From: Candidatus Hodarchaeota archaeon
Lineage (GTDB): Archaea > Asgardarchaeota > Lokiarchaeia > Sigyniarchaeales > SOKP01
Length of the DNA: 64,000 bases
Reading direction: 5' to 3'
Assembly: GCA_048886685.1 (NCBI GenBank)
Contig: JBHLKM010000003.1
Location: forward strand, 96,001-160,000
Made by a program: the position numbers and the translations under genes. This document shows positions 31,748 to 34,196 of the stretch, piece after piece (the stretch's first letter is position 1; each line of letters starts with the position of its first letter). Below the pieces are notes generated by a model that was not told where the DNA came from, searched no databases, and saw nothing but the letters and a program-made list of their open reading frames with translations.

Positions 31748-31895
31748 TATCTATCAAAACAAAATTTTAGATTATCTAAAATAATCATTCTCTTAAAATA
31801 AAATTAGTTTAAAATCATTAATAATAGGTATTTAAATCATTAATTATATTATAAAATAAAATATTTCAATTTGGTTGAAAATTAAACGTAGGATT

Positions 31896-32939
31896 ATGGT
31901 TGAAAATTCAAAAAGCTCAGATGATTTGGAGCATAAGGGAGAAGATATTGAACGTATCTCAAAAAGTTTTAATACAAATGAAAAAATTATCGAAAAGGAT
32001 TTTATTCCTCACTACTTTCCAACATATAGAATCAAAAGAAAATTATATCCTGTTCCAATAATTCTAGTTGTAATAATTTCAGGTATATTAGCATATTTAA
32101 CATATGTAGAAGCAGGAGTTCAAATAGAAGGAGGATATTTCTCAGAAAGCGAATATGGAGCAATTGGGGGGATAATTAATGGAATTATATATACGGTGCT
32201 AGCGGGTTTCTCTGCTTTTGTTATTATTTACATTATTAAAAAAAGAGGAGTGGGGACTTTAATATATATTTTTGGAATAGGTTTTGGGATAGTAGCCTTT
32301 TTTCAAACTTGGTTCTTTGGTGAGATAATATTATATCTTTCAGTTGCTAATTATCCTAGATTATACTATACTCTTGATGTTGAATTAATTTTTCTTACAG
32401 CAGTATTTACCATATTTATAATTTACAGATATTTTACCTCAAAATCAATTAAGATAAAAAATTTCATTGTGTTATATATTGGATTACTAATTGGGGCTTC
32501 TATGGGTGTTTTAATGCCTCTTTGGACTACTCTAGCCATATTAATAGGAATTTCGTTATGGGATATGTTTGCTGTTTTGTATAAACATGGACCTATAAAG
32601 CAATTAATTGATATTGTTTCTGAATCTAATGACAACAATATTTCAGAAAAAGAATTAAAAGATAAAATTAATAGCGGAGAATTTAGATATGATACTTCCA
32701 AATTGGAGATCGGAATTGGTGATCTAGCATTTTATAGTATGCTTACATCCAGTGCTCTTGTTCAAACAAATAATATAATCATTATGATTTTAACTTCAGT
32801 AGCTATAATAGTTGGAACAGGAATTACAATAATGGGATTAAAAAGAAATAAAATCCTACCAGGTCTACCTATCTCAATCTTTTTAGGAATTGGAACAATG
32901 TTGCTCTCCTGGTATATTTTTTCATTCATATTTGTTTAA
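31896..32939 (+). CDS. Presenilin-family intramembrane aspartyl protease (A22)
   Basis: About 9 TMs; SLWDMFAVL...GPIK, GIGDLAFYS, LPGLPISI (YD, GxGD and PAL equivalents). Confidence 0.92.
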   Translation: MVENSKSSDDLEHKGEDIERISKSFNTNEKIIEKDFIPHYFPTYRIKRKLYPVPIILVVIISGILAYLTYVEAGVQIEGGYFSESEYGAIGGIINGIIYTVLAGFSAFVIIYIIKKRGVGTLIYIFGIGFGIVAFFQTWFFGEIILYLSVANYPRLYYTLDVELIFLTAVFTIFIIYRYFTSKSIKIKNFIVLYIGLLIGASMGVLMPLWTTLAILIGISLWDMFAVLYKHGPIKQLIDIVSESNDNNISEKELKDKINSGEFRYDTSKLEIGIGDLAFYSMLTSSALVQTNNIIIMILTSVAIIVGTGITIMGLKRNKILPGLPISIFLGIGTMLLSWYIFSFIFV

Positions 32940-33008
32940 CATTAAATTTCTAATTTTTTAAAGTAAATTACATTTTATTTTTTATTACCAAATAAAAGGT
33001 GTATCTTT

Positions 33009-34196
33009 ATCGTAACAATAGATGATATTAAAACAATAGTAGTAATAGGTGCAGGGGTTATGGGTCATGAAATTGCTCAAGTAGCTCTTATGGGCGGTTT
33101 TGAAAATATAATTTTAAATGACTTAAATGAGGAAATTATTAATAAAGCTGTGATCAGAATTAAAAGTGGTTTGGAACGACTTGAGCTAAAAGGTAAGTTA
33201 AATGAAAGTTATACAACCACTAATCTAATGGATAATCTAATAGGGGAGGTTAGTTTAGAAAAAGCCCTATCCAGAGCAGACTTTGTTATTGAAGCAATTC
33301 CAGAAGTTATGAAAATTAAAAAAGATCTTTTTGAGAAATTAGGTAATTATTCCCCCGAAAATGCAATTTTGGCAACAAATACGTCTACAATGAGTATTTC
33401 TGAGATAGCTTCAACATCAGGAAGACCTGATAAAGTTATAGGATGCCATTTTTTTACACCCATAGTCGTACTACGATTAATTGAAATCATTAAGGGAAAA
33501 AAAACTTCAGACGAAACTGTAAAAATAGCAAAAGAAATCTGTCAAAAATTACCCTCTCTTCAAGGAAAACGCTTTTTACCAGTACTTCAAAAAGAAAGTC
33601 CCGGATTCATTGTAAATAGGTTAAATGCTGTTTCTTTTCTCTATTTAAACTGGCTTCTGGAATATTCTATGGAAAAAGGTATAGCCTTGGAAAATTTAGA
33701 TGCAGATGCTGAATCTCTGGCAGAAGTTGGTCCATATGCTAAATTGGATTATCTTGGTCTTGATACAGTATTTAATGCCATGATATATTTCGCAGGAGCT
33801 GTTTCTTCAGATTTTACTCCAGGAAAAACTATAACAAGACTAGTAAGTAAAGGAAATCTTGGAAGAAAAACAGGAAAAGGACTTTTTAATTGGAATGGAG
33901 AGAAATTAAAAATTTCTAAAAAAGAGAAAGCTGGTCTCTTAGACATTGAGCTTCTTATGGCAACCCAATTAAATGAGGGATGTAGACTTTTAGAAGAAGG
34001 TGTAGTTCCTGGTTATAAAATAATTGATGACGCTATGATGGCAGGAATGAACATACCTGGTCCCTTTGGCCCTGGAAAAAGAAATTATGGGAAATGGACA
34101 AATTTATTAGAAGATTTTGTAGAAAAATCAGGTATTACATATTTAAAACCGTGTAAACTGATGAAATCTGGCGATTTTATTAATATGAGAAAATAA
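33009..34196 (+). CDS. 3-hydroxyacyl-CoA dehydrogenase (probable ATC start)
   Basis: Frame upstream of ATG 33060 encodes IVTIDDIKTIVVIGAGV-MG (Rossmann strand plus GxGxxG); EAIPE, TNTS, GCHFF, PGFIVNR, GRKTGKG. Confidence 0.9.
   Translation: MVTIDDIKTIVVIGAGVMGHEIAQVALMGGFENIILNDLNEEIINKAVIRIKSGLERLELKGKLNESYTTTNLMDNLIGEVSLEKALSRADFVIEAIPEVMKIKKDLFEKLGNYSPENAILATNTSTMSISEIASTSGRPDKVIGCHFFTPIVVLRLIEIIKGKKTSDETVKIAKEICQKLPSLQGKRFLPVLQKESPGFIVNRLNAVSFLYLNWLLEYSMEKGIALENLDADAESLAEVGPYAKLDYLGLDTVFNAMIYFAGAVSSDFTPGKTITRLVSKGNLGRKTGKGLFNWNGEKLKISKKEKAGLLDIELLMATQLNEGCRLLEEGVVPGYKIIDDAMMAGMNIPGPFGPGKRNYGKWTNLLEDFVEKSGITYLKPCKLMKSGDFINMRK

What the first reader, a model, noticed from the sequence alone, without database searches (positions are those of the whole stretch)
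32964..33062. 3-hydroxyacyl-CoA dehydrogenase apparently starts at ATC
The first ATG (33060) falls inside the GAGVMG nucleotide-binding loop. The preceding Rossmann strand (IKTIVVI) is in frame, with no NTG back to the TAA at 32964. ATC at 33009 lies 5 nt after AGGTGTA, the same SD-like hexamer and spacing as the XPD case. This is independent support for SD-guided non-canonical starts.
Basis: partly seen in the sequence, partly recalled or inferred. Interest (0 to 1): 0.7.

Follow-up and report, generated by a model that had tools for sequence, protein, structure and literature searches.

The report
Asgard dehydrogenase gene starting at ATC
An intact, selected 3-hydroxyacyl-CoA dehydrogenase gene of a Loki-type Asgard archaeon has no ATG/GTG/TTG start and most likely begins at ATC, 7 bases after a ribosome-binding site. 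Close relatives have switched between ATG and ATA/ATC at this codon, and gene finders cut the protein short.

Summary
From TAA 32964 to ATG 33060, which lies inside GAGVMG, the frame holds no ATG, GTG, TTG or CTG. AGGTG (32997-33001) lies 7 nt before ATC 33009.

ATC 33009 sits in the column, 13 codons before the first Gly, where 17 of 19 syntenic orthologs with a canonical start have ATG (GTG in one). The nearest species (G017) has ATA there, and a metagenome relative also lacks a canonical start.

The gene is under purifying selection: dN/dS is 0.14-0.18, the same as in ATG-start pairs. This holds for the 16 codons before the internal ATG too.

Seventeen public protein clusters are truncated calls (378 aa, MGHEIAQ...). 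On a tree they interleave with ATG-start forms, which needs at least 5 state changes.

In my own genome-wide counts, ATA/ATT/ATC codons behind GGTG are enriched 2.7-fold. About 55 long ORFs have unexpectedly long stretches without a start codon. At least six other genes have Pfam domains that begin right after an SD-plus-ATH site.

Sequencing error, pseudogene and the internal ATG are rejected. The choice of 33009 over ATC 33003 remains inferred, and no peptide evidence exists.

This scan had already reported the same habit on other stretches of this genome. I found no publication on it.

The parts
31875..32939 (+). Upstream presenilin-family gene. It lies in the same reading frame as the dehydrogenase but is separated from it by three in-frame TAA codons.
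   Evidence: Pfam Presenilin 1.2e-23. It is syntenic upstream of the dehydrogenase in 21 of 23 species of the genus.
32950..32963 (+). CTAATTTTTTAAAG block, identical in G000 and G017. It is a candidate archaeal TATA/BRE region that would give a short SD-bearing leader (inferred only).
   Evidence: Intergenic alignment. No transcript data.
32964..32966 (+). In-frame TAA that closes the frame upstream.
32997..33001 (+). Shine-Dalgarno element AGGTG, complementary to the 16S rRNA 3' end ...GGATCACCTCCT.
   Evidence: The 16S 3' end was read in the genome. Duplex energy is -9.6 kcal/mol, the strongest of 24 orthologs. It is conserved as AGGTG in G017 and GGGTG in L032.
33003..33005 (+). Alternative ATC, 1 nt after the SD. 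It is ATA in G017 and L032, but Phe in P0008.
   Evidence: A spacing of 1 nt is at background level among ATG genes.
33009..33011 (+). Most likely start codon, ATC, 7 nt after AGGTG.
   Evidence: It aligns with the ATG/GTG of 17 of 19 syntenic orthologs that have a canonical start, and with ATA in G017. A spacing of 7 nt is the mode for GGTG-led ATG and ATH genes.
33009..34196 (+). 3-hydroxyacyl-CoA dehydrogenase coding region, 395 codons plus stop.
   Evidence: Pfam 3HCDH_N 1.2e-49 and 3HCDH 5.5e-14. PDB Hbd/HADH hits down to 1.7e-45. dN/dS 0.18 against G017.
33045..33047 (+). ATA used as the start by the public gene call (383 aa, MGAGVMG...). It would delete strand beta-1.
   Evidence: P0002. 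This column is GTA in G017, so it is not conserved as a start.
33048..33065 (+). GAGVMG dinucleotide-binding loop, which holds the first canonical ATG (33060-33062).
43065..43078 (+). The XPD comparison case: GGTGTA, 5 nt, then ATA.
   Evidence: The DEAD_2, Helicase_C_2 and HBB domains are present, and Walker A lies before the first ATG.

Best explanation
The gene encodes a functional 395-residue 3-hydroxyacyl-CoA dehydrogenase. Its mRNA carries an AGGUG Shine-Dalgarno element that pairs with the 16S rRNA 3' end. That pairing places the codon 7 nt downstream, AUC at 33009, in the P site. There the ordinary CAU-anticodon initiator tRNA starts translation, presumably with Met, despite a mismatch at the third codon position. 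The ancestral ATG at this codon was replaced by ATH in this sub-lineage. Since then the codon has drifted among ATA and ATC and has reverted to ATG several times. This is what one expects if AUH behind a good SD is a usable start in this genus, probably a weaker one. Shown here: there is no canonical start; the ATC is homologous to ortholog ATGs; the SD is present at the usual spacing; the whole ORF, including the segment before the internal ATG, is under purifying selection; start states switch repeatedly; SD-plus-ATH sites are enriched genome-wide. Inferred: that initiation really occurs at 33009, that Met is inserted, and that the efficiency is lower than with ATG.
For: - **No canonical start:** no NTG occurs between TAA 32964 and ATG 33060.
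- **Essential N-terminus:** the Pfam and PDB alignments need residues from about 33027 onward.
- **Start column:** in 21 syntenic orthologs the start lies 13 codons before the first Gly. It is ATG in 16, GTG in 1, ATC in G000 and ATA in G017.
- **Other lineages:** G017 (79% identity, dS 0.62) and metagenome L032 (74%) also lack canonical starts.
- **Selection:** dN/dS is 0.14-0.18 in pairs without a canonical start and 0.12-0.19 in canonical pairs. In the 16 codons before the internal ATG, G000 against L032 shows 8 synonymous and 4 non-synonymous differences.
- **Truncated public calls:** 17 protein clusters are 378-aa calls from NCBI, JGI, ENA and Logan. All three that I could check at the DNA level lack a canonical start.
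- **Switching of start states:** on the tree, canonical and non-canonical rows interleave. P0007 (non-canonical) groups with P0003/P0004 (canonical) at 99/92 support. At least 5 state changes are needed among 31 rows.
- **Revertants:** the ATG-start forms inside this clade carry their M in exactly the same column.
- **Genome-wide SD link:** GGTG lies 5-9 nt upstream of 2.06% of ATH codons in start-free leaders, against 0.77% of other codons. That is an excess of about 47 sites.
- **Genome-wide leaders:** 31 ORFs have start-free leaders of 60 or more codons, where about 1 is expected.
- **Other genes:** in 6 or more of 10 other SD-plus-ATH genes the Pfam domain starts at residue 4-22 from the ATH.
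- **Initiator tRNA:** an ordinary initiator tRNA is present, with A1:U72, a GGG/CCC anticodon stem and anticodon CAU.
Against: - There is no peptide, ribosome-profiling or transcript evidence.
- L032 has TTA in the start column. Its only nearby ATH codons lie 1 nt and 4 nt after GGTG, outside the usual 5-9 nt.
- The ATC/ATA two codons upstream (33003) is also kept in three of four lineages, so the exact codon is not settled.
- SD strength does not cleanly separate ATH orthologs from ATG orthologs: the ATH forms rank 1, 7 and 7 of 24.
Confidence: 0.63

Rival explanations
1. Translation starts at the other ATC, 33003-33005, two codons upstream. This would give a 397-residue protein beginning (M)FIVTIDD.
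For: This column is ATH in G000 (ATC), G017 (ATA) and L032 (ATA), including L032, where the main column is TTA. Changes in the next two codons are conservative (F/I, I/L), as they would be if those codons were translated.
Against: It lies only 1 nt after GGTG. Among 1707 ATG genes that spacing is at background level (5 cases, about 2 expected by chance), against 19 cases at 7 nt. Ten confident ATH genes use spacings of 5-9 nt. P0008 has Phe in this column. No ortholog has its ATG there, and all revertants regained ATG at the 33009 column.
Confidence: 0.14
2. The protein is truncated and starts at ATA 33045, as in the public annotation, or at ATG 33060.
For: The public call P0002 uses ATA 33045. 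Seventeen clusters are called from the internal ATG.
Against: Either start deletes strand beta-1, and ATG 33060 also deletes two of the three glycines of GxGxxG. The 16 codons upstream of the internal ATG evolve under purifying selection. Column 33045 is GTA in G017. No SD precedes either codon.
Confidence: 0.04
3. Translation enters the frame by another route. Candidates are a frameshift from the out-of-frame GTG 32999 or ATG 33022, readthrough or reinitiation from the presenilin gene, or an initiator-like tRNA that reads AUH.
For: Presenilin lies in the same frame 69 nt upstream and is always syntenic. Out-of-frame GTG and ATG exist in all three lineages. The tRNA census is incomplete: ARAGORN finds 35 and Rfam 30.
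Against: Three in-frame TAA codons separate the two genes. The out-of-frame ATG is a by-product of the conserved (D/N)(D/E) codons and is also present in ATG-start orthologs. No slippery site is conserved: the position reads CTT T, ATT T and AAT T in the three lineages. The only initiator-type tRNA found has anticodon CAU.
Confidence: 0.05
4. The missing start is a sequencing or assembly error, or the gene is decaying.
For: A single G-to-C change at 33011 would create this state.
Against: The state is shared by independent assemblies (G017, L032) and by 17 clusters from four data sources. The 395-codon frame is intact in all of them. dN/dS is 0.14-0.18, equal to that of canonical orthologs.
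Confidence: 0.02

Closest known systems
Deinococcus dnaA, which starts at ATC (shown by N-terminal TMPP proteomics; PMC2830850)
   Same: A conserved housekeeping-type gene with no canonical start. ATC is the start and is conserved across related species. Annotations had to be corrected.
   Different: That case is bacterial, uses IF3-type proofreading and has direct peptide proof. Here the organism is an archaeon with the eukaryote-like aIF1/aIF1A/aIF2 machinery, there is no peptide evidence, and the start state switches between relatives.
Bacterial infC (AUU/AUA) and pcnB (AUU) starts, as reviewed in PMC2830850. NCBI table 11 lists ATT, ATC and ATA as possible starts.
   Same: An SD-led near-cognate AUH codon serves as the sole start of an intact gene.
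   Different: Those are isolated genes in which the weak start serves autoregulation. Here the gene is an ordinary metabolic enzyme, one of many such genes in the genome. No regulatory loop is evident.
Near-cognate initiation in eukaryotes (CUG, GUG, UUG, ACG, AUA, AUU; PMC3105428, abstract) and near-cognate putative start sites in Haloferax ribosome profiling (PMC7261190)
   Same: An AUG-anticodon initiator tRNA accepts a single mismatch, and the initiation factors are homologous (eIF1/aIF1).
   Different: In eukaryotes the start is found by scanning and Kozak context and usually adds alternative N-terminal extensions. Here the start is placed by an SD and is the only start of the main protein. 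The Haloferax sites were set aside by those authors as possible false positives.
Clostridial and human 3-hydroxyacyl/3-hydroxybutyryl-CoA dehydrogenases (PDB 6aa8, 4kug, 1f0y)
   Same: The same two-domain fold family, with the GxGxxG loop and the HFFxP...E catalytic motif.
   Different: The archaeal protein carries about 95 extra C-terminal residues. Identity is only about 35-40% by eye from the single printed alignment; it was not computed.

Membership tests
3-hydroxyacyl-CoA dehydrogenase (Pfam 3HCDH_N + 3HCDH) | N-terminal Rossmann NAD-binding domain with the GxGxxG loop | tested here: met
   PF02737 at 1.2e-49, residues 9-181, profile positions 1-170 of 180. GAGVMG lies at 33048-33065.
3-hydroxyacyl-CoA dehydrogenase (Pfam 3HCDH_N + 3HCDH) | C-terminal helical dimerisation domain | tested here: met
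   PF00725 at 5.5e-14, residues 199-294.
3-hydroxyacyl-CoA dehydrogenase (Pfam 3HCDH_N + 3HCDH) | Catalytic His-Glu pair (the HFFxP ... E motif) | tested here: met
   The query segment viGcHFFtPivvlrLiEi aligns with viGmHFFnPapvmkLvEv of 6aa8. That these residues are the catalytic pair is established knowledge, not tested here.
3-hydroxyacyl-CoA dehydrogenase (Pfam 3HCDH_N + 3HCDH) | Enzyme activity and substrate chain length | not testable with these tools
   An assay is needed.
SD-led near-cognate (AUH) initiation | No canonical start in frame upstream of residues needed for the fold | tested here: met
SD-led near-cognate (AUH) initiation | The AUH codon is homologous to the canonical start of orthologs | tested here: met
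   In the column 13 codons before the first Gly: ATG in 16, GTG in 1, ATC in G000, ATA in G017. L032 is the exception, with TTA.
SD-led near-cognate (AUH) initiation | An SD complementary to the organism's own 16S 3' end, at functional spacing | tested here: met
   AGGTG against ...CACCTCCT, -9.6 kcal/mol, 7 nt spacing, which is the genome's mode.
SD-led near-cognate (AUH) initiation | The gene stays under purifying selection, including the segment between the AUH and the first ATG | tested here: met
   dN/dS 0.14-0.18. The N-terminal 16 codons show 8 synonymous and 4 non-synonymous differences.
SD-led near-cognate (AUH) initiation | Direct evidence for the N-terminus (peptide, toeprint or ribosome profiling) | not testable with these tools
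   No such data are accessible.
Autoregulatory weak-start circuit (infC type) | The gene product controls start-codon discrimination | tested here: not met
   The product is a metabolic dehydrogenase, so it is not filed under this type.

The most novel reading that the evidence does not exclude
In this Lokiarchaeal genus, AUA/AUU/AUC behind a strong Shine-Dalgarno element is a regular, evolutionarily interchangeable class of start codon. A single gene can switch between ATG and ATH repeatedly (at least 5 times among close relatives here) without loss of function. Strong GGTG-type SDs are rare overall, yet roughly 30% of GGTG-led starts would be ATH. That would mean relaxed start-codon proofreading, compensated by the SD, in the archaeal lineage closest to eukaryotes, where near-cognate initiation is also common.
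Probability: 0.6. Interest if true: 0.8.

Novelty: new variant of a known kind. Interest (0 to 1): 0.62.

Why it matters
Reviews of archaeal initiation name only AUG, GUG and UUG as start codons (PMC7531240). [quoted passage not shown] I found no paper on ATH starts in Asgard archaea.

If this reading is right, it has three consequences:
- Gene calls for this gene are wrong in at least 18 public protein clusters: 378 or 383 aa instead of 395, with strand beta-1 of the Rossmann fold missing. The same will hold for dozens of other genes per genome. This distorts Asgard proteome sets used for structure prediction and for phylogenies of eukaryote origin.
- Start-codon stringency in the closest archaeal relatives of eukaryotes can be tested with concrete genes.
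- This locus adds something the single-gene cases lack: a dense set of close relatives in which ATG and ATH alternate at one homologous codon. That is a natural series for measuring what the change costs.

Tried and rejected
- **DNA of the truncated clusters:** I could not read the DNA of the 17 truncated clusters or of P0008. Their start state is inferred from gene calls and checked at the DNA level for only three.
- **Cluster members:** The listing of cluster members gave no longer alternative calls.
- **First SD scan:** a scan of AGGTG plus any codon opening a long ORF was swamped by in-frame GGT-G inside genes and was dropped. I replaced it with a test restricted to start-free leaders.
- **SD compensation:** the idea of a stronger SD where the start is ATH is only weakly supported at this gene. 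The ATH forms rank 1, 7 and 7 of 24, the lineages are related, and some ATG orthologs also have strong SDs. L031, which has ATG, has lost the GGTG.
- **Special initiator tRNA:** ARAGORN finds 35 tRNAs and Rfam 30, so the census is incomplete, probably because many tRNA genes carry introns. The one initiator-type tRNA has anticodon CAU. The two predicted GAU tRNAs have G1:C72. Nothing unusual was found, but absence is not proven.
- **Frameshift, readthrough, truncated start, error, pseudogene:** all rejected for the reasons given under the rival explanations.
- **Broad SD test:** a wider 5-mer SD test on the 50 ORFs with the longest coding-like leaders found SD plus ATH in only 16. That set also contains selenocysteine genes and ORFs of unknown start type, so not every long leader is an ATH start.

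Full report
**Observation.**
- TAA lies at 32964 and is followed by 31 sense codons with no ATG, GTG, TTG or CTG.
- The first canonical start, ATG 33060, is the M of G-A-G-V-M-G (33048-33065).
- AGGTG lies at 32997-33001. In-frame ATC codons lie at 33003 and 33009, which is 1 nt and 7 nt after the last G of the SD core.
XPD has 71 start-free codons that include its Walker A motif.

**What the gene is.** It is a two-domain 3-hydroxyacyl-CoA dehydrogenase.
- Pfam gives 3HCDH_N at 1.2e-49 and 3HCDH at 5.5e-14.
- Profile position 1 of the NAD domain aligns to residue 9 counted from ATC 33009.
- Solved Hbd enzymes such as 4kug align from their residue 2 to query residue 8. The HFFxP...E catalytic motif is kept.
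- A protein starting at ATG 33060 would therefore lack strand beta-1 and two of the three glycines.
- The window lies on contig C3 of a 4.4-Mb genome with 30.9% GC. The genome has a presenilin homologue and selenocysteine genes. Relatives carry public names such as Promethearchaeota or Lokiarchaeota.

**Orthologs.**
- All 23 species of the genus have homologues. In 21 of them the best hit lies directly downstream of the presenilin gene, so these are positional orthologs.
- In 17 of the 19 with a canonical start, that start lies exactly 13 codons before the first Gly of GxGxxG. It is ATG in 16 and GTG in G023.
- G000 has ATC in that column. G017, the closest species (79% amino-acid identity), has ATA there, and its frame also lacks any canonical start.
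- A metagenome contig, L032 (74% identity), is a third lineage without a canonical start. L031 (81% identity) has ATG in the column and has lost the GGTG.
- All five paralogs in G000 start at ATG.

**Not an error, not a pseudogene.**
- G000 against G017 gives 395 aligned codons without gaps, dS 0.62, dN 0.11 and dN/dS 0.18.
- Pairs of sequences without a canonical start give 0.14-0.18. Pairs that involve ATG-start orthologs give 0.12-0.19.
- In the 16 codons between the proposed start and the internal ATG, G000 against L032 shows 8 synonymous differences on 12.5 sites and 4 non-synonymous differences on 35.5 sites. So this segment is translated.
- Upstream of AAA AGG TGT the substitutions lose their third-position bias. 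This places the start within 33003-33011.

**Switching between ATG and ATH.**
- A search of 5.8 billion proteins found 17 clusters of exactly 378 aa that begin MGHEIAQ. These are gene calls from the internal ATG, made by NCBI, JGI, ENA and Logan pipelines. The search also found 395-aa forms that begin M(V/T)... in the same column.
- The public call for this very gene is 383 aa (MGAGVMG). It starts at ATA 33045, a column that is GTA in G017.
- P0013 is identical to the G017 protein, and P0040 is 96% identical to the L032 protein. All three short calls that I could check at the DNA level do lack a canonical start.
- On a maximum-likelihood tree of 58 sequences the two states interleave. P0007 (short) is sister to P0003/P0004 (ATG) at 99/92 support, inside clades supported at 100/99 and 98/97. 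P0040 is a separate loss.
- Counting only well-supported branches by hand, at least 5 state changes are needed among 31 rows.
- Every revertant has its M in the 33009 column. This is the strongest argument that this codon, rather than 33003, is the start.

**SD and spacing.**
- The 16S rRNA ends ...GGATCACCTCCT.
- Among 1707 ORFs that start at a first ATG, GGTG peaks 7-8 nt upstream (19 and 15 cases, against about 2 expected per position). A spacing of 1 nt is at background.
- Ten confident ATH genes use spacings of 5-9 nt, with a median of 7.
- This favours 33009 over 33003.
- L032 does not fit. It has GGGTG followed by ATA at 1 nt, ATT at 4 nt and TTA at 7 nt. Its start is unexplained.
- P0008, a 413-aa call, reads ...NRCFSIVTIND. 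It has Ile at the 33009 column and Phe at the 33003 column.

**Genome-wide context (my own counts).**
- Of 3185 non-overlapping ORFs of 150 codons or more, 31 have 60 or more codons without ATG/GTG/TTG after the upstream stop, where about 1 is expected. The tail from 40 codons upward holds about 66 ORFs, against about 11 expected from the geometric decay of the shorter classes.
- In start-free leaders, GGTG lies 5-9 nt upstream of 75 of 3643 ATH codons (2.06%) and of 152 of 19693 other codons (0.77%). For ATC alone the count is 14 of 427. The excess of about 47 compares with 109 GGTG-led canonical first starts.
- Only about 3% of ATG genes have such an SD and about 12% have any 5-mer SD. This agrees with the remark in PMC7531240 that SDs are not prevalent in a Lokiarchaeal genome.
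- I fetched ten SD-plus-ATH genes. In at least six the Pfam domain starts at profile position 1-3 within 4-22 residues of the ATH, and 26-67 codons before the first canonical start. They are GpmA-type His_Phos_1, ThiF, a response regulator, a cytidylyltransferase, a CoA-binding protein and an FAD oxidoreductase.
- Some long leaders have other causes. In-frame TGA in HdrA-like and SelD-like genes, together with a tRNA-Sec, points to selenocysteine.

**Mechanism.**
- The one initiator-type tRNA found has A1:U72, a GGG/CCC anticodon stem and anticodon CAU. So the simplest reading is a mismatch at the third codon position, tolerated when the SD fixes the codon in the P site.
- This is inferred. 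The tRNA census is incomplete.
- A conserved CTAATTTTTTAAAG block about 50 nt upstream may be the promoter. This too is inferred.

**Literature.**
- I found no report of ATH starts in Asgard archaea.
- Reviews name AUG, GUG and UUG for archaea.
- Haloferax ribosome profiling saw near-cognate sites but set them aside.
- ATC initiation has been proven by N-terminal proteomics for Deinococcus dnaA.

**Earlier notes of this scan.** Other stretches of this genome, and XPD in this window, were already reported as ATH-start cases. I wrote down my own reading before opening those notes, and the counts above are my own. What this locus adds is an ATC case, a correction of the public ATA 33045 call, and the repeated switching between ATG and ATH at one homologous codon.

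**Verdict.**
- My confidence that the gene is functional and starts at one of the two ATC codons, 33003 or 33009, is about 0.77 (0.63 for 33009 plus 0.14 for 33003).
- Peptide-level proof is missing.

Noticed in passing
window 33045-33047: The public gene call for this gene (P0002, 383 aa, MGAGVMG...) starts at ATA 33045. So an annotation pipeline accepted a non-canonical start here, but at a codon that removes strand beta-1 and is GTA in the nearest species.
   Followed up: yes
L032:1494-1502 (metagenome contig Ga0114925_10009842): This is a third lineage without a canonical start, but its start column reads TTA. The only ATH codons near the GGGTG are ATA at 1 nt and ATT at 4 nt. dN/dS is still 0.14-0.16. 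Where this gene starts is unexplained.
   Followed up: partly
G000 contigs C11:121577, C6:216694, C13:56709 and C13:58039 (+ strand); C2, ORF start at 92422 counted on the reverse-complemented contig (- strand): In-frame TGA codons lie inside HdrA-like (..VC[RH]-TGA-G.NI..) and SelD-like coding sequence, and ARAGORN finds a tRNA-SeC. These are probably selenoproteins. They inflate any list of ORFs that lack an early start.
   Followed up: no
G000 genome-wide: GGTG-type SDs precede only about 3% of ATG starts, yet roughly 30% of all GGTG-led starts would be ATH. Strong SDs appear to be concentrated on weak start codons.
   Followed up: partly
G000 ORF starts at C2:405697, C19:3299 and C5:205198 counted on the reverse-complemented contigs (- strand); C13:81016 (+ strand): These ORFs have 83-163 coding-like codons before any canonical start and no obvious SD plus ATH just after the stop. 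They may be split or frameshifted genes, introns, or another start type. I did not examine them.
   Followed up: no
L031:124-190: A second dehydrogenase gene (apparently a paralog; the contig is cut just upstream, so synteny could not be checked) on the same metagenome contig starts at TTG, where the similar genes in L021, L023 and L024 have ATG. Start-codon turnover in this gene family is not limited to ATH.
   Followed up: no
G000:C30:10443-10546: The initiator tRNA (A1:U72, GGG/CCC anticodon stem, CAU) carries an intron. ARAGORN and Rfam together find only 30-35 tRNAs, so many tRNA genes here probably have unusual introns.
   Followed up: partly
window 31875-32939 and 33009-34196: The presenilin homologue and the dehydrogenase are adjacent, on the same strand, in 21 of 23 species of the genus. 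This is a conserved pair with no obvious functional link.
   Followed up: partly
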